DNA from: Minisyncoccota bacterium
GTDB lineage: Bacteria > Patescibacteriota > Minisyncoccia > Minisyncoccales > Minisyncoccaceae
Assembly (NCBI GenBank): GCA_041649435.1
Contig: JBAZNB010000003.1
Coordinates: 29,041 to 93,040 of the forward strand
DNA: 64,000 nt
Direction of reading: 5' to 3'
The first letter of the stretch is position 1, and the number at the start of each line of letters is the position of its first letter. Of this stretch, positions 27,268-62,302 are shown in pieces. A program made the translations under genes and the position numbers. The notes below the pieces were generated by a model that had not been told where the DNA came from, made no database searches, and saw only the letters and a list, made by a program, of their open reading frames with translations.

Positions 27268-29070
27268 TTAAGACAATCCATTAGTTTGACGAGACAAACG
27301 ATCTTTTGCTTCTTTTATTTTTAAAACTTCTTCTGGATTAGTGGTAATAATTTGGTCTTCGGTATATGAAGCTCGAATAGCAATAGCAACATGTTTTTGT
27401 CCTGCGAAAAAAATACCCTCCCCCACCGGGGTTTCTAAAAGAAGATATTTTTCTTGATCAGTTAAATTAAATGTTTTTTGGACTAAATCAATACTAGCGG
27501 GACTTTGTTTTAATAATAATTGAATTGAGGAATTTGTAATAATCGGCTTGCCATAAGCAGAACTCATAAAATCAGAAACATCTTGAGTGATTGTTGTTAC
27601 CCCTAGCCAATATTTTCGGGAACGTTTACACATTCCAAAAAGAAAAGAGGCGCCGTCTTCTTCTTTCATCATCCACCAAGCCTCATCAACAACCAAGATT
27701 CTTTTTTTGAAAGTGGTACGAACAGCATTCCAAATATAACGCATAACAATAAACATAGCGATTGGCCTTAATTCATCTTCCATGTCTCGAATCCCAAAAA
27801 CAACCAAATGTTTATCCATGTCTACATTTGAGTAAGCATTAAAAAAAGACGAATAAGTACCACGAGTGAATTTTCTTAATCTTTCTGATAAAGAATCAGC
27901 ATTTTCCATTGTTTCTAAAACCGATTCCAAGTCTGATAAAAGAGGGACGTTTTCTTTCCATTTTTTAGGGTCAGAGCTAATAGTAATGTCTTTAGCAGCA
28001 TAAGTAGCCATAATCGCTTGATCCATAATTGCGTCTTCTTCTGGAGTCATTCCACCGAGCATTATTCTCATTAATCCAACCAAGTTAATAACATTGCCCC
28101 GAAGTACGTCTTCTGGAGTTTCCCCTTCCATCATATCAGGCAAATCAAAAGGATTGATATGGCTATCAGAACTTAAAGATATTCGGAAAAAAGATCCTCC
28201 AACAGCTTCAGCTAAGGGCTTGTACTCATTTTCTGGATCAATGATAATACATTCCGTGCCCATCATCATTGATCTTAAAATTTCCAATTTTACAGCATAA
28301 GATTTTCCAGATCCAGCTTTTGCAAAAATAACCATATTTGGATTTTCCATACTAAAGCGATCAAATAAAACCAAAGAGCTATTATGTTTATTAATTCCAA
28401 AAAGAATTCCTTCATTACTACTTAAATCAAAAGAAATAAAAGGAAACAAACTTGATAAAGGAGAGGTATTAAGAGTGTTGTGGATATTTAAAAGATCTTG
28501 GCCATAAGGAAAACAAGAAATAAGACCTTCTTTTTGTTGGAAAAGCGCAGGCTTTATATAAATAAGACGAGACTCGAGCATTGATCTTAGATTTGTTTCT
28601 ACAAATTCTAATTGTTTTTTATCGTCTACATATACAGTGATATAAAGCCCAAATTTAAACATTTTTTCTTGAGCTGTTTGTAAACTGTCGCGCAAATCTT
28701 CCAGGTCTTGAAAGGCAGTTTCCAAGGCAGGATCTCTAACCAATCCTTTTTCTTGCCTTTCAATAATTTCTGATTGAACCTCGGTGACACTTTTCCTTAG
28801 TTGTTTTAAAATTTCTCCAGTTTCAATAGGGTGGAAATAAAAAGATAAATCAAAAGGGACATCCATATTAATTACCGGAGCAATCCAGCCCATATTTAGA
28901 TAACGCGGATAAGAAAAAACAAAGTATGTTTTACTATATTTTTCTTCAAGCTGAACATAATTTTGAGCAACCTCAATTGAAGACGGAGCAATAATGTCTT
29001 TAAAATCAGTTACTTCGGTTTCAAATAATTTTTTCTTTTTTTCTTCTTTTTTTGCGCCAAATAGGGCCAT
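27268..29070 (-). CDS. VirB4/TrbE-like T4SS ATPase, C-terminal 600 aa part
   Basis: Walker A AKAGSGKS with downstream NPFD; Walker B VVDEAWWM; overall VirB4 (AAA_10) arrangement. It is in-frame with the upstream 214 aa ORF. Confidence 0.7.
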   Translation of the reverse strand: MALFGAKKEEKKKKLFETEVTDFKDIIAPSSIEVAQNYVQLEEKYSKTYFVFSYPRYLNMGWIAPVINMDVPFDLSFYFHPIETGEILKQLRKSVTEVQSEIIERQEKGLVRDPALETAFQDLEDLRDSLQTAQEKMFKFGLYITVYVDDKKQLEFVETNLRSMLESRLIYIKPALFQQKEGLISCFPYGQDLLNIHNTLNTSPLSSLFPFISFDLSSNEGILFGINKHNSSLVLFDRFSMENPNMVIFAKAGSGKSYAVKLEILRSMMMGTECIIIDPENEYKPLAEAVGGSFFRISLSSDSHINPFDLPDMMEGETPEDVLRGNVINLVGLMRIMLGGMTPEEDAIMDQAIMATYAAKDITISSDPKKWKENVPLLSDLESVLETMENADSLSERLRKFTRGTYSSFFNAYSNVDMDKHLVVFGIRDMEDELRPIAMFIVMRYIWNAVRTTFKKRILVVDEAWWMMKEEDGASFLFGMCKRSRKYWLGVTTITQDVSDFMSSAYGKPIITNSSIQLLLKQSPASIDLVQKTFNLTDQEKYLLLETPVGEGIFFAGQKHVAIAIRASYTEDQIITTNPEEVLKIKEAKDRLSRQTNGLS

Positions 29071-29729: not shown

Positions 29730-30152
29730 TTATTTTTCAAAATCTATTTTTTTAATTAAGTTTTCTATTTTTCCGGTTTCTTTTATTTTTAAAGGAGATG
29801 GTTTTTCTTGAAGTTTTGCTTCGGCCAATCTTTTTTCTTTTGGCGAAGAAAGAAATACAGGAGATTGTTTTCTTTTCCAAAGGAATAATTTATTATTTAA
29901 TGTGTAGGTAGTAAAATTTTTTCCCACCTTAGCTACTCCCAATCCTTCTATTTTTATAAAAGCAAGGGCAAAGGCAATTCCAAAAAGTAAAACAGTGATT
30001 ATAACATATAAAGTTAAATGGTTTTTTGACATTAAAAAATATAAAAAAAAAGAAATTCCAAAAGCTGTACCAACAAACATAGTTTGGCTTAGAGTAAGCG
30101 GCCCTAATATTTTCGGGTCATGTTCGATAAATTGTGGCACTCGAAAATCCAT
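29730..30152 (-). CDS. VirB3-like small membrane protein
   Basis: 140 aa; DPKILGPLTLSQTMFVGTAFGISFFLYFL matches the VirB3 DP-lf-G-tRP motif followed by TM helices. Lies immediately upstream of virB4-like, the canonical order. Confidence 0.5.
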   Translation of the reverse strand: MDFRVPQFIEHDPKILGPLTLSQTMFVGTAFGISFFLYFLMSKNHLTLYVIITVLLFGIAFALAFIKIEGLGVAKVGKNFTTYTLNNKLFLWKRKQSPVFLSSPKEKRLAEAKLQEKPSPLKIKETGKIENLIKKIDFEK

Positions 30153-35482: not shown

Positions 35483-38400
35483 GTGAAGAAAAAAATGAAA
35501 AAAAATAAAAAAATTGGATTAATTATTTTAGGATTATTTTTTTTAATTCCGTTAACTGTTTTTGGCGCCCTAGAAAATACCTATCCTTCTCTTCCAGGAT
35601 TTTCTCCAGAAGAAGGAACAGGGCTGTTGGTTTATTTTTTTAATTTTTTGGTTTATTCCGGAGGAATAGTGGCTGTCTCAGTAATTATTTATCAAGGAAT
35701 AACCATTTTTTTATCCAAAGGAAATGTAGCAAAAATAAATGAAGCTAAAGATAGAATTAAGGCGGTATTTTTAGGGTTAACAATTCTTTTAGGCGCTTAT
35801 TTTATTTTAATGTTTATTAATCCTGATTTAACAAAAATTAATCTTCCAATCTTAGAATACGGCGAAAAAATTTTTTCGAATAATAAAGAATTCGAATCAA
35901 AAGATGTTGTTTATAAAGAAATTGCCTTGGGAGCAATTATCGAAGCAATTTTGATGCCGTCTTCGACAGCTGAAAATCAATATTTTAATTATTCCCAACT
36001 TAACAAAAAAACAGAAGAAAAATGTTATTTATATGACGAAGAAGGAAACACAATTGATCGCAATAATGATGGCGAAATTAACAACCAAGATATGGTTGAG
36101 GGAATGGACTTGTCTGTTTGTATGGATAATTTACTAAGAGCAACAATTGCAAAAATTAGCTGGTTTAACGGCAATCAATCAATTTGTAATGGTGCGATTG
36201 CTAATACAGAAGGCCCGATTAATGCTTTGAAAAAATTTATTAGGACAGGATGTACTTGTGAGCCTTGCACTAAATGGCCAGATAAAACATTCCCAGAAAC
36301 AAACTGGCCGCAAGGGTGTAAAACAACAGATACAAAAGTTACTTGCTATGACAATGACGGATCAAGCTATGAAATAGATGGAACTTATTGTGACTGGAAG
36401 TGTAAGTGCTGTGGAGAGCCTCGGGGAAGTGATATTGGCTGCCAAGATCAACCTTCTAGTCCATTTTATTTGGAAAATGTTTATATCAACCACGATCCTT
36501 GTACAAATCGTCAACAGATTGATTGTGCTCGGCAAGAAATGAATTTTAGAATTTACGGCAAAGGATTGGATTTGGGATTAAAATGCGCTGGGATTTATGA
36601 ATACAGTCCAGACATTGCCCCTTTTATCGATGAAGAAACTAATACTTTAAAAATAATTGAAAAAACAGCACCAGATGGAAAAATATATAAAGCTCAATTC
36701 TTAACTTTTACCGGCGCAGTTGAAAGCAGTGTTCTCAATAGAATCGAAAGCTTTAAGTCGTATTTCAATAATCGGTTAGCAGAACTACAAATTGCTAAAA
36801 ATTTTATTAATGCCGATAAAACAAAAAATATTTTATCTTTAGCTGAATTTCAAAATCTCCAAGAAACTAGTTCTGAAAATGTGGTTAAAGAACCTTTGAT
36901 TACCGGCTACGATCCCTCAACTTACCATTCTTTTGTTTGTAAAAAATATAATATTAATAATGTTTGCGTTCAAGGAGAGTTGGTAAAATTAAAAGAATCA
37001 GGATACGCTTTTTTGCCTGGACAAAATTATGAATCTTTTCCTACTCAAGGAGAGGGCCAAGTGCCAGCAACTTCCCCAAGCTCGGAAATTGACAATACTA
37101 AATATACAAGCGATAAATATGCTTTTGGCTGGCCATTTACAGCAAAAAGAATTTGGAATAATAAATTAGGAAAAACAGCTCTAAAAAGCGATTTATATAA
37201 TACTGGAGACCCTGATACCTTATATATTTTATCTTATCCAGGAACAACTGATCCAAACAAATATCCAGCTTCTGCTCGGGCCGGAATTATTGATAATTCC
37301 CCTACCAATAATCAATGCACCTTAAAAGATTCGGAAAAAACAGATAAAGAACAAATTGAAAAAGGAACAGCAGTTTCTAATATTCCGATTGGACAATTAA
37401 CTGACAACATGACTGAATATGTAGAACAAATAAATTTAATTTTAGACAACACAGTTGATGAAGTAAATAATGTGATTGATTCTGCTGATCAGCTAGCTAA
37501 TTATTTACCAGAACATTGCAGCTGTTCTTCTGGCTGTGGAAATACCAATATTTGCGAACCTCAACTTGGACCAACCTGCGCCGAGCCATTTCAAGTTTGC
37601 GGAGCGCCTCCTTGCACGGATTGCGAAACATCGGAACAAGTTGTTTGTGAATTTGGATGTCTTGATTGCGGAGCAACTCAAGCAATAGATTCAGCAAGAT
37701 ATTATTGCGTAAGAGATGGATCTCCTACGGGAGAATGGTCAGCTGCTAGAAATTATGATTTTGATGCTGCCGGGGTATTAAATCCATTTAATTATATGCC
37801 TTCGCAAGAAGGATGTTATGTTTCTAATCCGGCGAATAATTATACATCATTTTATTTATTAAAAAATCCTTTTCTTATAATTGGTGGAGAGCATTGCGGA
37901 TGCGAACAAGGATTATCATATCTAATAAGAGATGCTCTTGATGGTGCTCATGAATGCAATACTTTGGTTTATGGCAGTTCACTAGAAGGTTCTTTTGGAG
38001 CAGTTTGCACCACAAATGATGTTCAAAAAATATTAAATAATTATGAATATCGGTATGACAAGCAATTATTAGAATCAGGATATATTTGTACTTGTGCTCA
38101 TAATATTGGTTCAACCCAATGCTATAATCCAATAAATAATGAACCATTAAATTGCACACTAAATCAATTAAACGATGAAGAGTTTACAACAGATAGCGAT
38201 TGTTATCAATTATTAGAAAAATCAATTGCTGGTGATTGTATAAAAAATGCCAAAACAGTCACAAATTTAGGCGGCTTTTGGGATATTGCTTCTTGTAATG
38301 GAAAAACTATTAGAATAACCCCAAAATATACTTCTAATATTATCTCTTGCGAAGAGGGTTATACAAACTTAACCGAAGAAGAAAGAATTTTAATCGAAGA

Positions 38401-39250
38401 TAATTATAGTCAAGAAATTACTTGGCTTAATGAGCTTGGCAAAGGACAAGACGAATTGACTTATAGCGGTTTAGATTGTTGTGGTCTTTATGTAGGGAAT
38501 ACTAATGAACTTCAAGCAAATATTGATAATTTAATGTCTAATATTCCGAGCGGATTTAATACCGAATGTTCGATTGATTTTGAAACAGGACAATCATCAA
38601 TTAAAATTAGTCGAAAAGTTGATTTGAGCGGACCAATTATTCGGCCAGAAAAAATAAAAGATAATCAAGCTTATTATGTTTGTCCATATAATGAAATCAA
38701 AACCCAGCAATCCAGAATTTATAAAAGAGTGGGAGATCCTTCTTGGGTTGGATTAGAAGATTTAACCACAGATCAAGCATGCTTGGATGATGTTCCTGGA
38801 TTTTTACAAAGGATAGAGCAATGGCGAGAAAGATTGTGGAATTATCAAAATGCAATAGATTTATCCCCTATTGATGTTAATCGATTTACTTTATTAGATT
38901 TATTAAATGTTACTCGTTCACGTTTTCATCAGTGTATTCAGGGATATGGCCAGCAATATAAGCCGGCTGCGACCACGGTTTACTTATTTACTTGCGAAGA
39001 AGGAATTGATGCTCAAAACTTAGGGGCTTATCGTATCTATCCAGAATTTCCATTAACCAATTCATTTTTATCAGAAACAAAATCAGAATCTCAATGGGGA
39101 TGCTATCCTTTGAATAGTTCAGTTCTCAACGCTCAAGAAAGAAAAAATTGTTTTGAAAATAAAAATAAAAAAGGAGTTGACGGATGTCAATCAATTTTAC
39201 AAGAATATAATTTAATAAATGATTTTTATTGCTGTTCTGGATCTCAATAA
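35483..39250 (+). CDS. giant secreted Cys-rich protein with N-terminal VirB2/TrbC-like pilin module (paralog 1 of 4)
   Basis: 1255 aa; signal peptide ...VFGALENTYP, then two hydrophobic helices joined by loop SKGNVAKINEAKDRIKA. The remainder is hydrophilic with many Cys clusters (CTCEPC, CKCCGEP, CSCSSGCGNTNICEP, CTDCETSEQVVCEFGCLDCG). Confidence 0.6.
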   Translation: MKKKMKKNKKIGLIILGLFFLIPLTVFGALENTYPSLPGFSPEEGTGLLVYFFNFLVYSGGIVAVSVIIYQGITIFLSKGNVAKINEAKDRIKAVFLGLTILLGAYFILMFINPDLTKINLPILEYGEKIFSNNKEFESKDVVYKEIALGAIIEAILMPSSTAENQYFNYSQLNKKTEEKCYLYDEEGNTIDRNNDGEINNQDMVEGMDLSVCMDNLLRATIAKISWFNGNQSICNGAIANTEGPINALKKFIRTGCTCEPCTKWPDKTFPETNWPQGCKTTDTKVTCYDNDGSSYEIDGTYCDWKCKCCGEPRGSDIGCQDQPSSPFYLENVYINHDPCTNRQQIDCARQEMNFRIYGKGLDLGLKCAGIYEYSPDIAPFIDEETNTLKIIEKTAPDGKIYKAQFLTFTGAVESSVLNRIESFKSYFNNRLAELQIAKNFINADKTKNILSLAEFQNLQETSSENVVKEPLITGYDPSTYHSFVCKKYNINNVCVQGELVKLKESGYAFLPGQNYESFPTQGEGQVPATSPSSEIDNTKYTSDKYAFGWPFTAKRIWNNKLGKTALKSDLYNTGDPDTLYILSYPGTTDPNKYPASARAGIIDNSPTNNQCTLKDSEKTDKEQIEKGTAVSNIPIGQLTDNMTEYVEQINLILDNTVDEVNNVIDSADQLANYLPEHCSCSSGCGNTNICEPQLGPTCAEPFQVCGAPPCTDCETSEQVVCEFGCLDCGATQAIDSARYYCVRDGSPTGEWSAARNYDFDAAGVLNPFNYMPSQEGCYVSNPANNYTSFYLLKNPFLIIGGEHCGCEQGLSYLIRDALDGAHECNTLVYGSSLEGSFGAVCTTNDVQKILNNYEYRYDKQLLESGYICTCAHNIGSTQCYNPINNEPLNCTLNQLNDEEFTTDSDCYQLLEKSIAGDCIKNAKTVTNLGGFWDIASCNGKTIRITPKYTSNIISCEEGYTNLTEEERILIEDNYSQEITWLNELGKGQDELTYSGLDCCGLYVGNTNELQANIDNLMSNIPSGFNTECSIDFETGQSSIKISRKVDLSGPIIRPEKIKDNQAYYVCPYNEIKTQQSRIYKRVGDPSWVGLEDLTTDQACLDDVPGFLQRIEQWRERLWNYQNAIDLSPIDVNRFTLLDLLNVTRSRFHQCIQGYGQQYKPAATTVYLFTCEEGIDAQNLGAYRIYPEFPLTNSFLSETKSESQWGCYPLNSSVLNAQERKNCFENKNKKGVDGCQSILQEYNLINDFYCCSGSQ

Positions 39251-39257
39251 TTAAATT

Positions 39258-40604
39258 ATGAAAAAAACAATTATCAAAACAATATTATTAGTTTGTCTTT
39301 TTTGGCCAAAATCAGTTTTGGGAGCTTTGGAAAATATTTATCCCCCTATTCCGATTTCTTTGAATAAAACCTTAACAATTACTGCCAGCAGCAATGCGAC
39401 AGAATATCTTTTATATTTATTTGCTTTTTTTTCTGGCCTGGGCACAATTATTGCTTTAGGAGCCATGATTTGGGCTGGGGTAGAAATGATTCTTTCACAT
39501 GGCAATCCTCAAAAGTTTTCTGAGGCTAAATCCAAGGCTCAAAACGCTTTGATTGGACTATTAATTTTATTTGGAGCTTATCTTATTTTAAATGTTGTGA
39601 ATTCAGAAATAAAAAATGTAAAAGTAGAACAAATTGATTGCAATCAGGAGGATATTTGTGTTGCTCGTTATTTTTTGGGAAGTGAAAATCAAAAAATAAG
39701 CTATTCTTCGTCTCTTCCTGATAGTCCTAATTTAGATTTAAAATCAAATGAGGTAATGGTAATTAAAAGATTTAAAGGATTAAAAGAGATTTGGGGATTT
39801 CCTGAGCTTGATTTTCAAGGAACTCCGTTTTTAATTCAAGGATATCGAAACGACGATGAATCAGATTTGAATAATGATTTGCCAGCAGAAATAACCATTG
39901 ATAGTTCTGTTAAATCCGTTAGAGCCTATATTAAACAACCAGGAATATATTTATATGATGGATTAAATTATCAAGCTAGCAAGATCCCTCCCCTATTTTT
40001 AAGAAATAGCACTGTTGATTTGGGAGAATTTAAAAATAAAATAAAATCAATTCAAATTTTTAATGAACCAAATTTTAAATATTATGCTGTGGTTTTTGCC
40101 ATAGAAAAATATAATGATAGTTATGATTATAATTTTTATCCCCAATCTCCCAGCTCAGATTGCAGCGATGTGATTGAAGAAAGCGATTCGTCTTTTTCTG
40201 GGCCGAGCGGATCCATTTTAATTTTTAAGAGCTCGGATTCTTTTTTAGCAAAAAATCATAATCCAGGCATAACTTTTTATAATACTTTAAATTGCTATAT
40301 CCCACTGGGCTCGGTATCTGGTCAATTAAGCGAGTGTTCGGCCCCGTTTCAAGGATTATTTAAACTACAAACAATTCCAATTTCAAATTGCTCTGGAATA
40401 TCTGCTGGAGATGTTTTGTCTGTTAGACTCTCAGAAGAATCGGGAGTTTTGATGATTGCAGAATCATCTGGAAAAAGATATTGTAATTTTTTTGACATTG
40501 ATAGTGTAAATATTGTTAGTGGTAATTGTATCAGCGATAATATATTCTTTCGAAAAGCAGAAATTAATAATTTTATAATTATCCCTTATGAAAAAAAATT
40601 ATAA
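39258..40604 (+). CDS. secreted pilin-module fusion protein (paralog 2)
   Basis: 448 aa; ...SVLGALENIYP signal end, helix-loop-helix AGVEMILSHGNPQKFSEAKSKAQNALIGLLILFGAYLIL. C-terminal domain shares LKEIWGF / GIYLYD / FYNTLNC motifs with paralogs 3 and 4. Confidence 0.6.
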   Translation: MKKTIIKTILLVCLFWPKSVLGALENIYPPIPISLNKTLTITASSNATEYLLYLFAFFSGLGTIIALGAMIWAGVEMILSHGNPQKFSEAKSKAQNALIGLLILFGAYLILNVVNSEIKNVKVEQIDCNQEDICVARYFLGSENQKISYSSSLPDSPNLDLKSNEVMVIKRFKGLKEIWGFPELDFQGTPFLIQGYRNDDESDLNNDLPAEITIDSSVKSVRAYIKQPGIYLYDGLNYQASKIPPLFLRNSTVDLGEFKNKIKSIQIFNEPNFKYYAVVFAIEKYNDSYDYNFYPQSPSSDCSDVIEESDSSFSGPSGSILIFKSSDSFLAKNHNPGITFYNTLNCYIPLGSVSGQLSECSAPFQGLFKLQTIPISNCSGISAGDVLSVRLSEESGVLMIAESSGKRYCNFFDIDSVNIVSGNCISDNIFFRKAEINNFIIIPYEKKL

Positions 40605-40616
40605 TAAAAATATAAT

Positions 40617-41996
40617 ATGAAAAAATTATCAATAATTATTTTTACAGTACTTTTGTTTACGGGTTTTTTAATTCAACCCTGTTTTGCTTTAGAGATTCAA
40701 TATCCGGAAATAACCACCATAGATGGCCAAAAAATAACAATTACGGATGAATCTTCTCCAGACCAGTACGTAATTTATGTATTTTATATTTTAATAAGCC
40801 TGGGGGCAGTGATTGCTTTTATTGTTTTAGTAATGGCTGGATTTAATTTTTTAAACAGCGGAGGGTTGCCGACAAAAATAAGCTCTGCAAGAAATCAAGC
40901 TCTAGGCGCTTTTGTTGGACTTGTTGTTTTGTTCTCTTGCCATTTAATTCTAAATACAATTAATAAATCTTTAGTTAATACTCCTGTTAAAGCAATAGAC
41001 TGCAAAGATGTTCCAATTTGCGTAGCGTTTACTAGGATAGCAAACGAAAAATCGAAAACAACAGTGGAAATGGCTATTCAGACAGCTAATGATAATTTAT
41101 TGTTACAAGAAGGAGAAAGTATTGTTATTAAAAAGTATGATAATTTAAAAGAAATTTGGGGGTTTCTTGATTCAGGATTTAGAGGCACGCCAATTAAAAT
41201 TTTTCCTGATCCCAATAATCCAGAGGCAGAGGCAAAAGACTTGGCTCTTAGTCCTACAGCTGATGGCACAAATTTAAAATCTTATAAAATAATCGAAAAA
41301 AGAGAAGGAATTTATCTGTATGATAGACCCAATTTTGAAGTTGGTGATGGATCTATTGCCCCGTTTTTTTTAGCTGGCAATGTAAGCGATTTTTCTAAAA
41401 CCAATCCTGATTTTTTTCGTAAAACCCAATCAATTCAAGTAGTTGCTCCACGGTTTACTCCTGCCGATCCTGAAAATCAAGTTGGTCATTTGGGAACTAC
41501 ACCAGGAGCAGTATTTTTTTCTGAACCAGAATTTAGAGGAACATGTTTGGAGTTTTTTCCAACTGCGGGAACAGAAACTGGATTGAATGATTTAAATCAA
41601 GAAGGGCAATTAGGAAAACCATTAATCCCTTTTGGTTATAATGTAAGCTCGGCAATTACTTTTAAATATACTACAACTGGGAGTGCGGCAGTTAATGGGG
41701 TTGTTACTTTTTATAATACACTGAATTGTCAAAAAAATGAGGCTATTCCTGAACAAAAATCTTGTGAGCAAGAAATTTATGAAAATCCGTGGGGAATATA
41801 TTTAAACTCAGCTTGTGGGCAAGATTTTAAAATAAAATCATTTAAAATTAATGGTCCAGTAGGAGTGGTTTTAGTTGAAGGAAATAAATGCCAATATTTT
41901 GATAAAAAAGATTTTTGTTCAGGTAATTGTGTTTGTTCAATTTTAGAAACCAGTGTTAGTAATCCTGACATTTTCGAACTCTTGCCAATAGATTAA
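40617..41996 (+). CDS. secreted pilin-module fusion protein (paralog 3)
   Basis: 459 aa; CFALEIQYP, loop NSGGLPTKISSARNQA; motifs LKEIWGF, GIYLYD, FYNTLNC. Confidence 0.6.
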   Translation: MKKLSIIIFTVLLFTGFLIQPCFALEIQYPEITTIDGQKITITDESSPDQYVIYVFYILISLGAVIAFIVLVMAGFNFLNSGGLPTKISSARNQALGAFVGLVVLFSCHLILNTINKSLVNTPVKAIDCKDVPICVAFTRIANEKSKTTVEMAIQTANDNLLLQEGESIVIKKYDNLKEIWGFLDSGFRGTPIKIFPDPNNPEAEAKDLALSPTADGTNLKSYKIIEKREGIYLYDRPNFEVGDGSIAPFFLAGNVSDFSKTNPDFFRKTQSIQVVAPRFTPADPENQVGHLGTTPGAVFFSEPEFRGTCLEFFPTAGTETGLNDLNQEGQLGKPLIPFGYNVSSAITFKYTTTGSAAVNGVVTFYNTLNCQKNEAIPEQKSCEQEIYENPWGIYLNSACGQDFKIKSFKINGPVGVVLVEGNKCQYFDKKDFCSGNCVCSILETSVSNPDIFELLPID

Positions 41997-42000
41997 TTTT

Positions 42001-43311
42001 ATGAAAAAAAACATTTTATTATTTTTATTTATTTCAATTCTTTTTTGCGCTAATAGCGTTTTAGCTTTGGAAATTTCCTATCCCACAATCGGTGGAGTAT
42101 CTTTGCCTCCTAATCCTACGTTTACAAATTATTTTATTTATTTTTTTAATTTTGCTTTATTCGTTGGAATGGTGGCGGCTAGTTTTGTTTTGATTTTTGG
42201 AGCAATATCATATTTTCTTTCTAAAGGAGAAATTGGGAAAATAGAAAAAGCAAAAAGAGAAATCATAAGGTCTTTTATCGGGCTTGTTGTTTTATTTGGA
42301 TCAGTAATGATATTAAATACGATTAATTCTGGAATTAATAAAAATACTTTAGAAAGTTTGAACCCTGAAAAATATTCTGGAGGAATAATTTTACAATATG
42401 AAAACGGCCGAGAACAAAACATTGCTGGCGACATGACCGAAACGCCTTATAATGTAGGCGGAATTAAATGGCTTTCCGCAGAATCGGAATTACCGAGAAT
42501 ATTTGTTTTTCCGCAAAAAGATTTTTCTGGCAACCCCCAAGAAATTATGAACGGAAACAGTGTTTTTATTGCTAAAGGAAGTTCAATTTCTTTTGATTGG
42601 CAACGTCCCGGAGTTTATCTTTATAATGCGCTTGATTATCAGTTAGAAAACAGAAGGTCGCCATTATATTTATTAAATAGCCAGCCAGCCTTAGGAAATA
42701 ATGGATTTGATAAAAAAACCGCTTCGATAAAAATAGTTCAGCCTTCGGAAAAAGGATTTGTAAAATACGGAGCCGTGCTTTTTTCCGGGGATAATTATAC
42801 TGGAAAATGTTCTTGGGTAATGAATGATTTGCCAAATATTAATGAAGTTAGTCAGAGCAATCCTGAAGAAAATAGTGTTCGAATTAACGAAAGCGATGAG
42901 TTTTCTGGCATTGGCCAAGTATCTTCAATTTATGTTTTAAAAATTGATCCCGCCACTCCCCTTTCCGAGGTCGTGCTTTATAATGGTACAAATTGCGAAT
43001 CAAAAGATTCTATTTGGAATGATGCCACCAAATCATTTCTTGAGCCGAATTATTGCGTTGTTCCAGAATATCAAAAAGAATTTAAATTTGAAATTTGCGA
43101 AACAATGCCTCAAAACGGAGATACTATTTTATCAGCGAAAATAAGCGAAGGTGCTGTTTTATTATTAAAAGACAAAGAAGGAAATTGCCAACTATTCAGG
43201 AAGCAAGGACTAAGCAATTGTATTACTTCTATTACTTATGGGAAGGTTTATGATATAGAAAATAGAGAAAAGACAAAACCTTTATATTTTACGATTTTAC
43301 CGGGTAAATAA
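42001..43311 (+). CDS. secreted pilin-module fusion protein (paralog 4)
   Basis: 436 aa; SVLALEISYP, loop SKGEIGKIEKAKREI; motifs GVYLYN, LYNGTNC. Confidence 0.6.
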   Translation: MKKNILLFLFISILFCANSVLALEISYPTIGGVSLPPNPTFTNYFIYFFNFALFVGMVAASFVLIFGAISYFLSKGEIGKIEKAKREIIRSFIGLVVLFGSVMILNTINSGINKNTLESLNPEKYSGGIILQYENGREQNIAGDMTETPYNVGGIKWLSAESELPRIFVFPQKDFSGNPQEIMNGNSVFIAKGSSISFDWQRPGVYLYNALDYQLENRRSPLYLLNSQPALGNNGFDKKTASIKIVQPSEKGFVKYGAVLFSGDNYTGKCSWVMNDLPNINEVSQSNPEENSVRINESDEFSGIGQVSSIYVLKIDPATPLSEVVLYNGTNCESKDSIWNDATKSFLEPNYCVVPEYQKEFKFEICETMPQNGDTILSAKISEGAVLLLKDKEGNCQLFRKQGLSNCITSITYGKVYDIENREKTKPLYFTILPGK

Positions 43312-56372: not shown

Positions 56373-56383
56373 TTTTAAAAGAA

Positions 56384-58214: not shown

Positions 58215-60329
58215 TTATTTCTTTGCTTCTTTTAATGATAGATTAATCCTGCCTTGTTCGTCAATAGAGATAACTTTTACCGGAATGATGTCATTTAGTT
58301 TTACAACGTCAGTTACTTTGTTTACGCGTTTGTTGTCTAAATGAGAAATATGAACCAATCCCTCTTGTCCTGGTAGAATTTCAACAAAAGCGCCAAAATC
58401 CATTATCCTTTTTACTGTTCCTTGATAAATTTCTCCCACTTCCACTTCTTTAACAATATTATTTATCCAATCAATAGCTTTTTTGGCTGATTCTTGATTT
58501 TCCGAAGTAATGAATATTTCTCCAGAATCTTCGATATCAATAGTAACATTGCAAGTTTCTATTATTTCATTAATTATTTTTCCACCAGTTCCAATTACTT
58601 CTCCAATTTTTTCCGGATTTATTTTAATAACAAAAATTCTTGGAGCATAAGGAGATAATTCTTTTCTTGGTTCAACTAAGGTTTGAGTCATAGTATTTCT
58701 TATCTCTTCTCTAGCTGGACGCGATTGTTCAAGCGCTTGCTTGATAATTTTATCGGTTATTCCCCTTATTTTAATATCCATTTGCAGAGCAGTAATTCCT
58801 TTTTCTGTGCCGGCAACTTTAAAATCCATATCACCATAATGATCTTCTTCTCCTTGAACATCAGTTAAAACAACATATTCTTTATCTTCAGAGCTTTTTT
58901 CGTTATTTATTTCCATCATTAATCCCATAGCAATTCCAGAAACAGGCCTTTTAATTGGCACACCTCCATCCATAAGCGCTAAACAAGCAGCGCAAGTTGA
59001 GGCCATAGAACTTGATCCATTTGAACACAAAACTTCAGAAACAACCCTGATTGTATAAGGAAATTCTTCTGCCGAAGGAATCATTGGACGGAGAGCTTTT
59101 TCTGCTAACATTCCATGCCCTATTTCTCTTCGGCCAGGGCCACGCATGGGTCCTGTTTCGCCGACACAATAAGGAGGAAAATTATAATTATGCATAAATC
59201 TTTTTTTGCCCTGAATTTCCATTTCGTCAATAATTTTTTGATCTCCCGGAGCGCCCAAAGTAAGAAAAGATAAAACTTTTGTCTGGCCGCGGGTAAACAA
59301 GCCGGTGCCATGGGTTCTTTTAAATAATCCTGTCTGGCAATTTAATTCCCTTAATTGGGTTATTTTTCGGCCATCTGTTCTAAGACCCATTTTTATTGCT
59401 CCATGATGCATGGTTTTTTCTGTTTCCATTTCAAAAATATTCAAACCCTGTCTTAATTGTTGAGGATCGTCATTTAAAGCTTTTAAATGTTCGGCTAATT
59501 CATTTTTTAAATTTTCAATAGTATCTGTTTTTTTAAATAAAGCTTTTTCCAGGCGATTGCCAAGAAAATTAATTACTTCTTTTTTTAGCTCTTCGTTAAT
59601 TGGGTATTCTTTTATTTTTATTTTTTCTTTTCCGATTTCTTTTTGGATTTTTTCTTGAAAGTCTAAAATTTCTTTTTGAATTTTTTTCGTTTCCGCAAAA
59701 GCCGTTAAAAGCATTTCTTCAGAAACCTCTTTTAGTCCAGCTTCAATCATATTAACTAAAATTTCTTTTCCCGATTCGGATCTTAAAGCGGAAATCATTA
59801 AATCCATATTCCCCTCTTCTCTTTCTTTGGCTGTTGGGAAAATAATTATTTGACCATCTTTTTCTCCTACTCTAATTGGGGCAACCGGACCACTCCAAGG
59901 AATATCAGAACAAAGCAAGGCAACTGAGGCAGCCAATAAACTTAAAGAAGCCGGGTCTGATTCTTGATCCCAAGACAAGCAAGTGACAACAAGCTGGACT
60001 TCATGATGCAAATCAGATGGAAAAAGCGGGCGAATTGCTCGATCAATTAGTCTTGATGTTAAGATGGATTGTTCTGATGGCCGCCCTTCCCTTTTCATAA
60101 AACGGGAGCCAAGTATTTTTCCAACTGCATAATATTTTTCTTCGTATAATACTGTTAAAGGAAAAAAATCTGCATTTTCAATTTCTTTTTTTGCGATAAC
60201 GCAATTGGCCATTACAACAGTATCGCCGTATTTTACAAAAACAGAACTGTTTGCTCTTTCGGCCAAGCCATTAAATTCTATTTCTAGCAATTTATTGTTA
60301 ATTTCTGTTTTAAATAATTTTGTTTCCAT
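58215..60329 (-). CDS. pnp: polyribonucleotide nucleotidyltransferase (PNPase)
   Basis: 704 aa; two RNase PH domains, KH and C-terminal S1 (GTVKRIMDFGAFVEI). Confidence 0.95.
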   Translation of the reverse strand: METKLFKTEINNKLLEIEFNGLAERANSSVFVKYGDTVVMANCVIAKKEIENADFFPLTVLYEEKYYAVGKILGSRFMKREGRPSEQSILTSRLIDRAIRPLFPSDLHHEVQLVVTCLSWDQESDPASLSLLAASVALLCSDIPWSGPVAPIRVGEKDGQIIIFPTAKEREEGNMDLMISALRSESGKEILVNMIEAGLKEVSEEMLLTAFAETKKIQKEILDFQEKIQKEIGKEKIKIKEYPINEELKKEVINFLGNRLEKALFKKTDTIENLKNELAEHLKALNDDPQQLRQGLNIFEMETEKTMHHGAIKMGLRTDGRKITQLRELNCQTGLFKRTHGTGLFTRGQTKVLSFLTLGAPGDQKIIDEMEIQGKKRFMHNYNFPPYCVGETGPMRGPGRREIGHGMLAEKALRPMIPSAEEFPYTIRVVSEVLCSNGSSSMASTCAACLALMDGGVPIKRPVSGIAMGLMMEINNEKSSEDKEYVVLTDVQGEEDHYGDMDFKVAGTEKGITALQMDIKIRGITDKIIKQALEQSRPAREEIRNTMTQTLVEPRKELSPYAPRIFVIKINPEKIGEVIGTGGKIINEIIETCNVTIDIEDSGEIFITSENQESAKKAIDWINNIVKEVEVGEIYQGTVKRIMDFGAFVEILPGQEGLVHISHLDNKRVNKVTDVVKLNDIIPVKVISIDEQGRINLSLKEAKK

Positions 60330-60339
60330 AATTTTACAA

Positions 60340-60371
60340 ATAGAAAAATACGGCCCTAAGATTTAAGGCCG
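60340..60371 (-). terminator. rpsO-pnp intergenic hairpin (terminator/attenuator-like)
   Basis: cggcc-11 nt-ggccg hairpin (60351-60371) overlapping the rpsO stop, followed on the minus strand by a T-rich tract. Confidence 0.45.
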
Positions 60372-60622
60372 ATTTTTTTAGTGATTTCTTTATAGATTTT
60401 TTCGTCGGTCTTTTGAAGGTATTTTAAAAGTTTTCTTCTTTTAGAAACCATTTTCAAAAGTCCTTTTTTTGAATGAATATCTTTTTTGTGCTCTTTCAAG
60501 TGCTCTAATAGTTTTTCAATTTCTTTGGACAATAAAGCGACTTGAACTTCAGCTGAACCAGTATCTTTTTCGTGAGTTTTGAACTTATCAATAATACTTG
60601 TTTTGTCTTCTGGTGATAACAT
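60356..60622 (-). CDS. rpsO: 30S ribosomal protein S15
   Basis: 88 aa; LSPEDKTSIIDKF...GSAEVQVALLS is classic S15. Confidence 0.9.
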   Translation of the reverse strand: MLSPEDKTSIIDKFKTHEKDTGSAEVQVALLSKEIEKLLEHLKEHKKDIHSKKGLLKMVSKRRKLLKYLQKTDEKIYKEITKKIGLKS

Positions 60623-60737
60623 TTTTTTATTTTTTAATTTTTATTATGCGCCTTGTTTTAGTTTTTTAACCAAAACAGGTGTCTCTTCAATATTTAATTG
60701 TTAATAAGATTGTCTTTTTTATCGCAGGCTTCCGTTG

Positions 60738-60810
60738 TGCCCCGTGAGGGATTCGAACCCACGACCTTGAAGTTAAGAGCTTCCTGCTCTACCAACTGAG
60801 CTAACGGGGC
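60738..60810 (-). tRNA. tRNA-Lys (anticodon CTT)
   Basis: Manual cloverleaf: acceptor GCCCCGT/ACGGGGC, D-arm GCTC-AGTTGGTA-GAGC, anticodon loop CTCTTAA (U33, CUU, A37), T-loop TTCGAAT with one U-U mismatch in the T-stem. No encoded CCA. Confidence 0.7.
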
Positions 60811-60842
60811 CTATTTAGATTAACAGAATTTCTTGATTAAAA

Positions 60843-61280
60843 TTAAGGCGTGGTTTGCGTGGTGAAAAATTGTAATAGCCAATTGCTTTGAGTTGGTCCT
60901 CCAATAAAACTGATAAACCAGTACACTAACATCCAAGCGGAATAAACCAGGATTATTCCAATAACAGCGGCAGTAACCATATCTTTAGCTTGTTTTGTTT
61001 TCCCCGGATCTCCCCCAGAGGTTAGCATTAAGAATCCAGCATAAGCAAACCAAATCACTATTAATGGCGGAACTAATTGCCATAAAATAAAATTTATTAT
61101 GCTTTGGACTAAACAAAATAAGTCTGCCAAGGTGCAGGCAGGCTGGCCTTCATTTCCACAGCAAACAATTGAGTCGCAAGTTGGACAAGTGGCAGCACTG
61201 GTAATAATTGGAAAAGCAATGAAAACTAAAAAAAGAAGGCCAATTAAAGAAAAATATTTATATTTTTTATTAAAAATCAT
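60843..61280 (-). CDS. free-standing VirB2/TrbC-like pilin-module protein (Cys-rich N-terminal segment)
   Basis: 145 aa; signal peptide, CPTCDSIVCCGNEGQPAC, then helix-loop-helix AGFLMLTSGGDPGKTKQAKDMVTAAVIGIILVYSAWML. Architecture and motif are the same as the N-terminal modules of the four paralogs at 35483-43311. Confidence 0.5.
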   Translation of the reverse strand: MIFNKKYKYFSLIGLLFLVFIAFPIITSAATCPTCDSIVCCGNEGQPACTLADLFCLVQSIINFILWQLVPPLIVIWFAYAGFLMLTSGGDPGKTKQAKDMVTAAVIGIILVYSAWMLVYWFISFIGGPTQSNWLLQFFTTQTTP

Positions 61281-61350
61281 CTTTTTTTAGGTTGCTATTC
61301 TGGGTTGAGTATAGTTTATTTTGTTTAAAAAATCAAGGCTTTTTAAGTTC

Positions 61351-61483
61351 GGCCTCGGGCCCGTCGGCCCTCCGGCTTCGAGTCCGAAAATTATACGGCA
61401 GGACTCGCCCTTCTGTAATTTTCTGGTGAAAATTCCTCAGGGCCGGCCTCGGGCCCGTCGGCCCTCCGGCTTCGAGTCCGAAA
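61351..61483. repeat. two copies of a GC-rich 39-nt direct repeat (period 94 nt) with an intervening tRNA-Arg 3'-end-like fragment
   Basis: ggcctcgggcccgtcggccctccggcttcgagtccgaaa at 61351-61389 and 61445-61483; contains T-loop-like TTCGAGTCC. The segment cggcaggactcg(c)cc at 61396-61410 matches the 3' part of the adjacent tRNA-Arg. Confidence 0.7.
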
Positions 61484-61489
61484 GTAATT

Positions 61490-61519
61490 AAAAGAGAGGG
61501 GCATTTGCCCCTCTCTTTT
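61490..61519. terminator. perfect 9-bp stem hairpin terminator downstream of tRNA-Arg
   Basis: gagaggggc-attt-gcccctctc flanked by aaaa / tttt. Confidence 0.65.
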
Positions 61520-61525
61520 AATTAG

Positions 61526-61597
61526 TGCCCCCGGCAGGACTCGAACCCACACCGCTGGTTCCGAAGACCAGAACTCTATCCGTTGAGCTACGGGGGC
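61526..61597 (-). tRNA. tRNA-Arg (anticodon TCG)
   Basis: Manual cloverleaf: acceptor GCCCCCG/CGGGGGC, D-arm GCTC-AACGGATA-GAGT, anticodon stem CTGGT/ACCAG with loop CTTCGGA (U33, UCG), T-loop TTCGAGT. 72 nt, no encoded CCA. Confidence 0.7.
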
Positions 61598-61630
61598 AGA
61601 TATAAAAAATACAACGTATTTACTTAAAAG

Positions 61631-62302
61631 TCAAAGTTTATTTTTAAAAAACTTTATTCGGAAAGCAGGAACCGTATCTTGATCAAACAAAAGACGATTT
61701 TCTATTAATTCCCGTTTTTTCTTTTGGTCATTAATATTTTTTATTTCTTTAATCGGACTTAGCCTTTTAATAAAAATTGGGAAAAGAGAGATTAAAAGTA
61801 AAAACCCTGGAGCTTGCCATTTAGTAAAAGCAAATCCTAAAAAAATTCCAAACAATAAAGACAAAATAGTGCCGATTGAAGCAGTCCAAATAAAAGTAAA
61901 GATAATACAAGGAATAACAATAATAAAAAGAAAAACAGGAGAAAATCCAATAATTGCGCCAACTAATGTCGCTAATCCCCTTCCCCCTTTACCCTTAACA
62001 AAAATAGACCAATTGTGTCCTAAAATAGCGCAGAGTCCTGCCAAAACTTGAACAAAAAGAGGAAGTCCTAGCTTTTGAGATAAATAAATTACTAAAAATC
62101 CTTTACCAACGTCTAACAAAAAAGCTAAAATTCCCGGCAATTTTCCAATATTTTTGATAACATTACTAGCTGAACTTTTTTTCCAGCCTAATTCAAAGAC
62201 ATTTTTTTTGGTAAAAATTTTTGTAATCAAATAACTGAAAGGAATAGATCCAAGCAAATAAGAAAAGATAAAAAAACCAAAAGATAATAAAATTTGAGAC
62301 AT
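61631..62302 (-). CDS. plsY: glycerol-3-phosphate acyltransferase PlsY family protein (paralog A)
   Basis: 223 aa polytopic; GSIPFSYLI...SASNVIKNIG...LDVGKG pattern. Confidence 0.65.
   Translation of the reverse strand: MSQILLSFGFFIFSYLLGSIPFSYLITKIFTKKNVFELGWKKSSASNVIKNIGKLPGILAFLLDVGKGFLVIYLSQKLGLPLFVQVLAGLCAILGHNWSIFVKGKGGRGLATLVGAIIGFSPVFLFIIVIPCIIFTFIWTASIGTILSLLFGIFLGFAFTKWQAPGFLLLISLFPIFIKRLSPIKEIKNINDQKKKRELIENRLLFDQDTVPAFRIKFFKNKL

What the first reader, a model, noticed from the sequence alone, without database searches (positions are those of the whole stretch)
60843..61280. Fifth, free-standing pilin-module gene flanked by tRNA-Lys and tRNA-Arg
The 145-aa protein has a signal peptide, a short Cys-rich segment and the same helix-loop-helix (AGFLMLTSGGDPGKTKQAKDM...) as the four fusion proteins, but no large C-terminal domain. 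It is the best candidate for the major structural pilin of the apparatus encoded at 27-43 kb. Its location between two tRNA genes, next to GC-rich repeats and a tRNA fragment, suggests it sits in an integration hotspot.
Basis: partly seen in the sequence, partly recalled or inferred. Interest (0 to 1): 0.6.

Follow-up and report, generated by a model that had tools for sequence, protein, structure and literature searches.

The report
Free-standing VirB2-like pilin gene, Paceibacterota
This is an ordinary small pilin-like membrane protein of the type IV secretion system that many ultra-small (CPR/Patescibacteria) bacteria carry. It is a long-standing resident between two tRNA genes rather than an imported gene, and the GC-rich repeats beside it belong to an apparently undescribed family of structured repeats that sit just downstream of tRNA genes.

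Summary
The ORF at 60843-61280 (-) is real. It encodes a 145-aa protein with a signal peptide, a six-Cys segment and a two-helix hairpin. It scores above threshold for Pfam PF18895 T4SS_pilin, and the hairpin is homologous to the N-modules of the four fusion proteins at 35483-43311. The identical protein is already in NCBI as "pilin [Candidatus Paceibacterota bacterium]". VirB2-like pilins of Patescibacteria, in arrays or away from virB4, were described in 2023-2025, so the gene is already known.

"Major pilin" is plausible but untested. In its favour, it is the only module-only copy in the window, it has an invariant promoter, and tRNA-Lys is probably co-transcribed with it.

"Integration hotspot" is wrong for the gene. 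The order tRNA-Arg, pilin, tRNA-Lys is kept in six related genomes, with pilin identity from 94% down to 44%.

The adjacent repeats and "tRNA fragment" are copies of a roughly 95-nt structured unit with a three-way junction; 19 of its 29 predicted pairs covary. In Paceibacterota this unit lies downstream of tRNA genes of at least 12 identities and ends in a copy of that tRNA from T-loop C56 to the discriminator. I found no description of it. Its mechanism is unresolved.

The parts
60843..61280 (-). CDS of the 145-aa free-standing T4SS_pilin (VirB2-like) protein; identical to NCBI MFA5009326.1, named 'pilin'
61194..61280 (-). Signal peptide, residues 1-29: a basic n-region (KK.K), a hydrophobic core at 10-28, and a TSA|A cleavage motif
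   Evidence: read directly from the sequence; the cleavage site is inferred
61113..61193 (-). Cys-rich N-terminal segment of the mature protein, residues 30-56 with six Cys. The C41...C49 pair corresponds to the 'PCG...C' motif common in free-standing family members; the other four Cys are specific to this subfamily
60903..61112 (-). Helix-loop-helix pilin module, residues 57-126. G90 and G108 are invariant and K94 nearly invariant across the five window modules and the homologues
61308..61336 (-). Promoter of the pilin gene: TTGATT, 17 nt, TATACT. Both hexamers are invariant and the spacer nearly so in six genomes, while the upstream DNA cannot be aligned
60737..60810 (-). tRNA-Lys(CUU), 32 nt downstream of the pilin stop codon. 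No promoter-like or terminator-like site lies between them, so it is probably co-transcribed with the pilin gene (inferred)
61525..61597 (-). tRNA-Arg(UCG), with its own promoter-like site at 61606-61634
61485..61524 (-). Perfect 19-bp hairpin directly after tRNA-Arg; looks like an intrinsic terminator
61389..61482 (-). Full copy of the tRNA-linked structured repeat unit (P1/P2/P3 three-way junction).
61323..61388 (-). Truncated second copy of the repeat unit (5' arm plus the P2 GC hairpin only)
35483..43311 (+). Array of four genes (1255, 448, 459 and 436 aa), each with an N-terminal T4SS_pilin module followed by a large C-terminal domain
27268..29070 (-). VirB4-like ATPase (TraG P-loop domain), 31.8 kb from the free-standing pilin gene
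29730..30152 (-). PrgI-family (VirB3-like) protein

Best explanation
The gene encodes a VirB2-like pilin of the Patescibacteria type IV secretion system (Pfam T4SS_pilin). The likely steps, all inferred, are as follows. The Sec pathway inserts the precursor and signal peptidase cuts after TSA29. The mature protein of about 116 aa sits in the membrane as a helical hairpin, with both ends outside and the basic loop (K94, K96, K99) inside, as VirB2 and TraA do. From there the VirB4/VirB3/VirB6-like machine at 27-35 kb either extracts it into a filament or keeps it as part of the channel. It is the only copy in the window without a bulky C-terminal domain, so it is the best candidate for the repeating subunit. 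The four pilin-domain fusions would then be minor or tip subunits that display host-binding domains. The gene is an old chromosomal resident with its own conserved promoter, and it probably forms a transcription unit with tRNA-Lys. The neighbouring GC-rich repeats are unrelated small tRNA-linked repeat units.
For: PF18895 scores 43.3 bits against a gathering cut-off of 26.6. TrbC/VirB2 PF04956 gives 19.3 bits, E 1.4e-3, over the same residues. The module is homologous to the four fusions. The HMM scan finds five modules in the window and no others. The helical hairpin is predicted with pLDDT 76-88, and the hydropathy and charge pattern fit. VirB4-like and PrgI-like genes lie in the same window. 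A profile of the module matches a Bacillota 'Mbov_0395 family pilin-like conjugal transfer protein', encoded five genes upstream of a VirB4-like ATPase, with hhalign probability 96.6% and E 4.8e-10. The family is very large: 94,478 50%-identity cluster representatives at E<=1e-3, many of them free-standing proteins of 124-170 aa. NCBI already names this exact protein 'pilin'. The literature reports VirB2-like pilins in 1,948 Patescibacteria assemblies, near virB4 in 1,135 of them, and an essential pilin array in S. epibionticum (PMC12102498, PMC12857230). The gene's divergence tracks that of its membrane-protein neighbours: pilin 94/66/61% against PlsY 89-97/65-68/63-73%. Promoter hexamers are invariant in six genomes. 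No promoter-like or terminator-like site lies between the gene and tRNA-Lys.
Against: No T4SS pilus has been observed in any Patescibacterium; the review calls it only an 'intriguing possibility' (PMC12857230). Sequence and fold searches of the PDB gave no significant match. The A. tumefaciens T-pilus subunit VirB2 (8exh_A) came only at rank 26 with E 4.8, and a helical hairpin is too simple a fold to be diagnostic. The gene lies 17.5 kb from the pilin array and 31.8 kb from virB4. Only 64 kb of the genome was examined, so other short pilins may exist elsewhere. There are no expression data.
Confidence: 0.8

Rival explanations
1. The protein is a VirB2-like hairpin that never forms an extracellular pilus. 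It stays in the membrane or cell wall as a structural part of a monoderm-type T4SS channel, as presumed for the Mbov_0395-family proteins of Bacillota and Mollicutes conjugative elements.
For: Its closest relatives outside Patescibacteria are the Mbov_0395 family (NCBIfam E 5.8e-5; hhalign 96.6%), encoded in a Bacillota T4SS cluster; monoderm T4SSs are not known to make pili (PMC12857230). The rest of the window's apparatus is of monoderm type: PrgI and a TraG/VirB4 P-loop protein. PMC12102498 places the Patescibacteria T4SS with the MPF-FATA class.
Against: Multiple divergent pilin paralogues and pilin fusions with large extracellular domains are easier to explain if the modules are displayed on a surface structure. 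Reviews regard a pilus as possible (PMC12857230).
Confidence: 0.3
2. The gene is cargo of a mobile element that integrated at a tRNA hotspot.
For: Two tRNA genes flank it, and a 12-nt tRNA-Arg fragment and GC-rich repeats lie upstream.
Against: The gene has the same order and orientation in six related loci whose PNPase identity to the window is 79-99% and pilin identity 44-94%. There is no integrase or any other ORF of at least 60 aa between the tRNAs that is not inside the pilin gene. GC content is 0.34-0.43, like the surroundings. The tRNA fragment is the 3' arm of a 94-nt repeat unit that lies wholly upstream of the promoter, and no matching repeat brackets the gene.
Confidence: 0.03
3. 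It is an unrelated small secreted or membrane peptide, for example bacteriocin-like or holin-like, that resembles pilins only because it is hydrophobic.
For: It is small, Cys-rich and hydrophobic. Transmembrane segments can inflate similarity scores.
Against: The conserved positions are loop residues, not only hydrophobic ones: the [ST]xGxxxKxxx[AG][KR] motif with G90, K94 and G108. The Pfam score is above the curated threshold. A T4SS-linked homologue in Bacillota matches with hhalign E 4.8e-10.
Confidence: 0.02

Closest known systems
Pfam PF18895 T4SS_pilin; the VirB2-like pilins of Patescibacteria (Wang et al. 2023, PMC10633639; Quinonero-Coronel et al. 2025, PMC12102498)
   Same: Profile score above threshold. 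Signal peptide plus a two-helix hairpin with a G-x3-K-x3-A-K loop. Encoded in a genome with a monoderm-type VirB4/VirB3-like cluster and a tandem array of divergent pilin paralogues.
   Different: This copy is free-standing, 31.8 kb from virB4, and sits between two tRNA genes. Its subfamily has six Cys in the mature N-terminus, where many free-standing members have the two-Cys 'PCG...C' motif.
TrbC/VirB2 conjugative pilins of diderm T4SS (Pfam PF04956; A. tumefaciens VirB2, RP4 TrbC)
   Same: Same size class, same signal peptide plus hairpin layout, and the same topology expected from the basic loop. Sub-threshold profile similarity over the hairpin (E 1.4e-3; a second module gives 3.1e-3).
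   Different: Below the Pfam gathering score. No significant PDB match by sequence or by fold. The organism is a monoderm, and neither pilus formation, processing nor cyclisation has been shown.
NCBIfam NF045849, the Mbov_0395 family of pilin-like conjugal transfer proteins (Mollicutes/Bacillota ICEs and plasmids)
   Same: hhalign probability 96.6%, E 4.8e-10, 32% identity over 62 columns, including the motif Y(A/S)GF..(L/I)TS.GDP.K...AK. The Bacillota homologue lies five genes upstream of a VirB4-like ATPase.
   Different: Below the NCBIfam cut-off (22.7 against 40 bits). Different phylum. The Bacillota protein has no Cys-rich segment in the aligned part.
For the adjacent repeats: GC-rich palindromes that flank tRNA genes in Neurospora mitochondria (Yin, Heckman and RajBhandary 1981, cited from memory), mobile GC clusters of yeast mitochondria (PMC4478555), and folded single-strand recombination sites (integron attC, CTX-phi attP; general knowledge)
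   Same: Short GC-rich structured repeats in an AT-rich genome, concentrated next to tRNA genes, with variable copy number between close relatives and a structure conserved through compensatory changes.
   Different: Each unit here ends in an exact copy of the neighbouring tRNA from C56 to the discriminator and begins with its complement. Units are always downstream and on the tRNA strand. No recombinase gene is linked. None of the named systems has this anatomy.

Membership tests
Pfam PF18895 T4SS_pilin | Profile HMM score at or above the curated gathering threshold | tested here: met
   43.3 bits against 26.6, E 3.8e-11, residues 65-122 on profile positions 15-71 of 71
Pfam PF18895 T4SS_pilin | N-terminal signal peptide followed by two hydrophobic helices joined by a short polar loop | tested here: met
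   Hydropathy and charges; AlphaFold2 helices 51-86 and 92-127
Pfam PF18895 T4SS_pilin | Encoded in a genome that carries a T4SS (VirB4 and partner proteins) | tested here: met
   VirB4-like gene at 27268-29070 and PrgI-like gene at 29730-30152 in the same window. They are not adjacent to the pilin gene; the VirB4-like gene is 31.8 kb away
TrbC/VirB2 pilins (PF04956) | Profile HMM score at or above the gathering threshold | tested here: not met
   19.3 bits against 27.9, E 1.4e-3
TrbC/VirB2 pilins (PF04956) | Fold and lattice of solved conjugative pilins | tested here: inconclusive
   Foldseek against the PDB gave no hit at E<=1e-3; the T-pilus subunit VirB2 (8exh_A) is at rank 26 with E 4.8. 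The PDB profile search gave no pilin hit. A helical hairpin is too simple a fold to discriminate
TrbC/VirB2 pilins (PF04956) | Polymerises into an extracellular pilus that depends on VirB4 and VirB6 | not testable with these tools
   Needs microscopy or biochemistry. Unproven for the whole phylum (PMC12857230)
NCBIfam NF045849 Mbov_0395 pilin-like conjugal transfer protein | Equivalog HMM score at or above the cut-off | tested here: not met
   22.7 bits against 40. Homology is nevertheless supported by hhalign at 96.6% probability
Genomic island or integrated element at a tRNA gene | Integrase or recombinase gene within the inserted segment | tested here: not met
   The pilin gene is the only ORF of at least 60 aa between the two tRNAs that does not overlap another
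Genomic island or integrated element at a tRNA gene | Direct repeat of the tRNA 3' end bracketing the cargo | tested here: not met
   The tRNA-Arg fragment at 61396-61407 lies upstream of the pilin promoter, inside a 94-nt repeat unit. No copy lies beyond the gene
Genomic island or integrated element at a tRNA gene | Present in some relatives and absent from others | tested here: not met
   Present at the same place in L001, L002, L003/L004, L006 and L017
Hammerhead or other Rfam RNA family (considered for the repeat unit) | Covariance-model match | tested here: not met
   A permissive Rfam scan of 60300-61700 returned only the two tRNAs and chance-level hits. Gathering-threshold scans of L006, L012 and L017 returned only tRNAs

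The most novel reading that the evidence does not exclude
The 'GC-rich repeats and tRNA fragment' next to the pilin gene may belong to an undescribed class of small non-autonomous genetic element, or of tRNA-mimicking RNA, in Paceibacterota. The element is a roughly 95-nt three-way junction. Its closing stem is built from a copy of the adjacent tRNA (T-loop C56 to the discriminator) and that copy's complement. It settles only downstream of tRNA genes, on the same strand. It may recombine as a folded single strand at the T-loop, in the manner of integron attC sites or the CTX-phi attP hairpin. For the pilin itself, the most novel reading still open is that a monoderm T4SS builds a true pilus from this subunit, tipped by the four pilin-domain fusions.
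Probability: 0.3. Interest if true: 0.6.

Novelty: already known. Interest (0 to 1): 0.22.

Why it matters
The gene adds little. It is one more annotated member of a family with tens of thousands of representatives, and its role in the essential T4SS of Patescibacteria is already under discussion.

Three modest points remain useful.
1. A short, separately transcribed pilin with an invariant promoter coexists with an array of pilin-domain fusions. That suggests a division of labour between a repeating subunit and display subunits, which could be tested in cultivable Patescibacteria.
2. The module is clearly homologous to a pilin-like protein of Bacillota T4SS clusters. This bears on whether Patescibacteria co-opted VirB2 from diderm systems, a question left open in PMC12102498, or inherited it together with the monoderm machinery.
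3. The tRNA-linked structured repeats, if they are mobile, would be a new way of targeting tRNA genes in reduced genomes, and they appear to break assemblies (one contig of a relative ends inside an array).

Tried and rejected
- A profile search of PDB sequences found only chance hits to membrane proteins.
- Foldseek of the AlphaFold2 model against the PDB found nothing at E<=1e-3. I ran no further search on it, because a helical hairpin is not discriminating.
- tblastn against plasmids gave one weak hit (E 0.8). It became meaningful only after the profile comparison.
- For the repeat unit I considered a hammerhead ribozyme, because of CUGANGA-like and GAA-like junction strings. I rejected this: the junction order and spacing do not fit, and Rfam gave no hit even at E<=1.
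- I considered a plain attR remnant of a T-loop-class integrase. It does not explain the 65-nt conserved core between the two arms, or the 5' arm being the complement rather than a copy of the T-loop.
- I considered an IS200/IS605-type element. It does not explain the target-derived inverted arms.
- I looked for a linked recombinase, transposase or reverse transcriptase among 53 ORFs around the units. No such family recurred among the 25 most frequent families shown, which were housekeeping families.
- I tried to separate RNA-level from DNA-level structure by comparing G-U with A-C mismatches. The counts are about equal, so the test is uninformative.
- The 20-nt GC hairpin has no match in viral contigs.
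- Literature searches for a description of such repeats in Patescibacteria found nothing relevant.

Full report
**1. Observation**

The ORF at 60843-61280 on the minus strand is present. It starts with ATG and encodes 145 aa. ARAGORN and Rfam both place tRNA-Lys(CUU) at 60737-60810 and tRNA-Arg(UCG) at 61525-61597, on the same strand as the ORF.

- Hydropathy shows a signal-peptide-like segment (basic n-region, hydrophobic residues 10-28, TSA|A) and two further hydrophobic segments at about 55-86 and 101-125. They are joined by the basic loop TSGGDPGKTKQAKD. Six cysteines lie between residues 32 and 56.
- AlphaFold2, run on a 12-sequence alignment, predicts helices 51-86 and 92-127 with pLDDT 76-88. 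The overall mean is only 68.
- The reported repeats are real. A 45-nt direct repeat lies at 61350-61394 and 61444-61488; the 40-nt core occurs twice, with 0 expected by chance. A 12-nt copy of part of tRNA-Arg lies at 61396-61407.

**2. Is it the same module as in the four fusion proteins?**

Yes.
- The protein hits Pfam PF18895 (T4SS_pilin) at 43.3 bits, above the gathering cut-off of 26.6. It hits TrbC/VirB2 (PF04956) below threshold, at 19.3 bits and E 1.4e-3, over the same residues.
- The four proteins encoded at 35483-43311 all hit PF18895 with their N-terminal 50-115 residues, at 34.6, 24.8, 23.8 and 17.9 bits. Only the first is above threshold, and one of them also gives a sub-threshold TrbC hit.
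- Pairwise BLASTP of the 145-aa protein against two of the fusions gives 30-33% identity over the hairpin, with E of 1e-6 and 2e-6.
- In the joint alignment, G90 and G108 are invariant and K94 is nearly so.
- An HMM of the module searched over all six frames of the window finds these five proteins and nothing else below E 0.05. So "fifth" is correct for these 64 kb.
- The fusions lack the Cys-rich segment; their mature N-termini start with ALE..YP instead.

**3. What is known about it**

- The exact sequence is in NCBI as MFA5009326.1, "MAG: pilin [Candidatus Paceibacterota bacterium]". The 1255-aa fusion belongs to a cluster whose NCBI-named members are also called "pilin". The 448-aa fusion's exact sequence carries the same NCBI name.
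- A profile search of 1.84 billion cluster representatives finds 94,478 proteins at E<=1e-3 and 23,457 at E<=1e-10. They include many free-standing proteins of 124-170 aa and proteins with up to 17 tandem modules.
- Free-standing members typically carry a "PCG...C" pair of cysteines ahead of the hairpin. The six-Cys version here is a subfamily variant of that.
- Quinonero-Coronel et al. 2025 (PMC12102498) used PF18895 and PF04956 and found VirB2-like pilins in 1,948 Patescibacteria assemblies. They were near virB4 in 1,135 of these, and 441 arrays held 2-11 divergent pilin genes.
- Wang et al. 2023 (as cited in PMC12857230) showed that the pilin array of Southlakia epibionticum is essential.
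- The 2025 review (PMC12857230) treats a T4SS pilus in these monoderms as an open possibility.

A short pilin located away from virB4, alongside an array of paralogues, therefore falls within what has been published.

**4. Context and the "integration hotspot" idea**

Homologues at 94%, 66% and 61% identity lie on contigs with the same gene order: DegV, PlsY, PlsY, tRNA-Arg(UCG), pilin, tRNA-Lys(CUU), S15, PNPase. Two further Paceibacterota MAGs reached through the DNA scan (L017 with pilin 92%, L006 with pilin 44%) have the same order.

| Locus | Pilin identity to window (%) | PlsY paralogue 61631-62302 (%) | PlsY paralogue 62304-63026 (%) | DegV (%) | PNPase (%) |
|---|---|---|---|---|---|
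| L002 | 94 | 89 | 97 | 97 | 99 |
| L001 | 66 | 68 | 65 | 68 | 81 |
| L003 | 61 | 73 | 63 | 66 | 81 |

- Divergence of the pilin follows that of its membrane-protein neighbours, so the gene is under ordinary purifying selection.
- No recombinase gene lies between the tRNAs, and the composition is unremarkable.
- The gene is therefore an ancestral resident of this clade, not cargo.

**5. Transcription**

- A promoter-like site, TTGATT-17-TATACT, lies at 61336-61308. Both hexamers are invariant, and the spacer nearly so, in all six genomes, whereas the DNA upstream cannot be aligned.
- Between the pilin stop and tRNA-Lys there are only 32 nt in the window, and 9-32 nt in relatives. The scan finds no promoter-like or terminator-like site on that strand. 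I infer that tRNA-Lys is co-transcribed with the pilin gene.
- This would imply substantial transcription and is the only indirect support available for "highly expressed".

**6. Relation to other T4SS pilin-like proteins**

- NCBIfam gives a sub-threshold hit to NF045849, "Mbov_0395 family pilin-like conjugal transfer protein".
- tblastn against plasmids finds one weak match, annotated with that name, in a Pontibacillus megaplasmid. The gene lies in a cluster with a "VirB4-like conjugal transfer ATPase, CD1110 family" and a peptidoglycan hydrolase.
- A profile-profile comparison of the Paceibacterota module with that protein gives 96.6% probability, E 4.8e-10 and 32% identity over 62 columns, including the loop motif.
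- So the module has homologues in monoderm conjugation clusters. This fits the monoderm character of the rest of the apparatus here, a PrgI-like protein and a TraG/VirB4 P-loop ATPase. It suggests that the pilin need not have been borrowed from diderm systems.
- It also keeps alive the rival view that the protein is a membrane or cell-wall channel component rather than a pilus subunit.

**7. Mechanism proposed**

- Shown: family membership, module homology, hairpin architecture, conserved location and conserved promoter.
- Inferred: Sec export and cleavage after residue 29; a topology with both ends outside and the basic loop inside; extraction by the VirB4-like machine; a role as the repeating subunit, because it alone lacks a bulky C-terminal domain; and a role for the four fusions as minor or tip subunits.

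My confidence is about 0.8 that it is a T4SS pilin-family subunit, and about 0.45 that it is the major subunit of an actual pilus.

**8. The repeats beside the gene**

Read on the gene strand, the interval between tRNA-Arg and the promoter holds three things:
- a perfect 19-bp terminator-like hairpin at 61524-61485;
- one complete repeat unit at 61482-61389;
- one truncated unit at 61388-61323.

The same interval in relatives holds different numbers of such units, and some relatives also have units after tRNA-Lys, where the window has none.

*Distribution.* The 20-nt GC hairpin of the unit occurs in 14 loci of Paceibacterota/Parcubacteria MAGs among GTDB genomes. Four further hits are in high-GC genomes and are probably chance. 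It does not occur in viral contigs.

*Structure.* Sixteen units align well. RNAalifold predicts a three-way junction:
- P1: 9 bp;
- P2: a GC hairpin of 3+5 bp;
- P3: 3+9 bp, with what looks like a tandem G-A motif in its internal loop (read from the alignment).

Nineteen of the 29 pairs show compensatory changes.

*Association with tRNA genes.* A covariance model built from this alignment finds 45 units in the Paceibacterota loci and the two in the window. Of these, 39 lie at most 360 nt downstream of a tRNA gene on the same strand. The first unit usually starts about 55-60 nt after the tRNA, beyond its terminator hairpin. Two of the exceptions are the continuation of a tRNA-Leu array across a contig end. 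The tRNAs involved are Ala, Arg, Cys, Gln, His, Ile, Leu, Lys, Pro, Ser, Thr and Val.

*The arms.* The 3' arm of P1 plus its tail is a copy of the neighbouring tRNA from C56 of the T-loop to the discriminator. It is 18-19 of 19 nt identical in 12 of 21 first units; the Arg units stop after 12-13 nt. The 5' arm is its complement. In L004 the 3' arm matches the tRNA-Lys of the window's lineage rather than the local one, while the 5' arm complements the local one.

*Other findings.*
- Tandem arrays repeat the tRNA's 3' flank as well.
- No recombinase family recurs among 53 neighbouring ORFs, at least among the 25 most frequent families shown.
- Rfam has no matching family.
- Literature searches found no description.

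*Interpretation.* I cannot decide between two readings:
- a non-autonomous element that recombines at the T-loop, perhaps as a folded single strand;
- an RNA that mimics the acceptor/T minihelix.

G-U and A-C mismatch counts do not discriminate between them. The locus is a hotspot for these small units, not for the pilin gene.

**9. Verdict**

- The gene is already known and annotated, so its interest is low.
- The tRNA-linked structured repeat is the only unusual thing found. It is recorded as a side observation with partial follow-up.

Noticed in passing
window 61323-61482 (-); also L002 5521-5841 and 6597-6841, L008 5486-5702, L015 963-1266, L017 2021-2114 and 3017-3412, L018 1-202 and 5498-5591, and other loci: A family of roughly 95-nt structured repeat units forming a three-way junction, with 19 of 29 pairs covarying. 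In Paceibacterota the units lie 10-140 nt downstream of tRNA genes of at least 12 identities, on the same strand and often in tandem. Each ends in an exact copy of that tRNA from T-loop C56 to the discriminator and starts with the complement of that copy. They are not in Rfam and not in viral contigs, no recombinase gene is linked, and I found no description in the literature.
   Followed up: partly
L004 2308-2401, compared with tRNA-Lys at L004 2176-2249: The 3' arm of this unit matches the tRNA-Lys 3' end of the window's lineage (19/19) rather than the local tRNA-Lys (15/19), while its 5' arm complements the local tRNA. This looks like a recombinant or transferred unit, or a displaced original tRNA 3' end.
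   Followed up: partly
L012 7013-7247: Two units carrying tRNA-Ala(UGC) 3' ends, together with the tRNA-Ala 3' flank, lie 5.8 kb from the tRNA-Ala gene. They follow a sequence ending in ...GAGCCCCCACCA that neither ARAGORN nor Rfam calls as an RNA gene.
   Followed up: no
L013 5500-5902 (-) and L018 1-340 (-): Two contigs of MAG SO_2017_LW4_119 end inside the same tRNA-Leu(UAA) repeat array, so these tandem units appear to break assemblies.
   Followed up: no
window 60811-61336 (-): The pilin gene has an invariant TTGATT-17-TATACT promoter and is followed after 32 nt by tRNA-Lys. No promoter-like or terminator-like site lies between them, so there is probably a pilin/tRNA-Lys co-transcript. 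The gap is 9-32 nt in relatives.
   Followed up: partly
L024 8794-9249 (Pontibacillus plasmid NZ_CP062975.1, 351801-352256): A Bacillota 'Mbov_0395 family pilin-like conjugal transfer protein', encoded five genes upstream of a CD1110-family VirB4-like ATPase, is homologous to the Paceibacterota pilin module (hhalign 96.6%, E 4.8e-10). PMC12102498 states that VirB2 homologues are absent from monoderm T4SS classes.
   Followed up: partly
proteins P0016 (1775 aa, 17 matched stretches), P0084, P0066, P0019: The representative library contains proteins with 10-17 tandem T4SS_pilin modules in one ORF. They are either true poly-pilin proteins or arrays fused by gene-calling errors.
   Followed up: no
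window 61390-61419 (-): A promoter-like ATTACA-18-TATAAT site (10 of 12 matches, perfect -10) is formed by the 3' part of the repeat unit and its junction, and it points toward the pilin gene. It is probably chance, but a unit insertion could in principle create a promoter.
   Followed up: no
window 55485-58189 (-): The adjacent 601-aa and 295-aa hypothetical proteins share a paralogous C-terminal region of about 250 aa (40-42% identity in tblastn cross-hits). Relatives show the same cross-hits, though one of them may lack a separate 295-aa gene.
   Followed up: no
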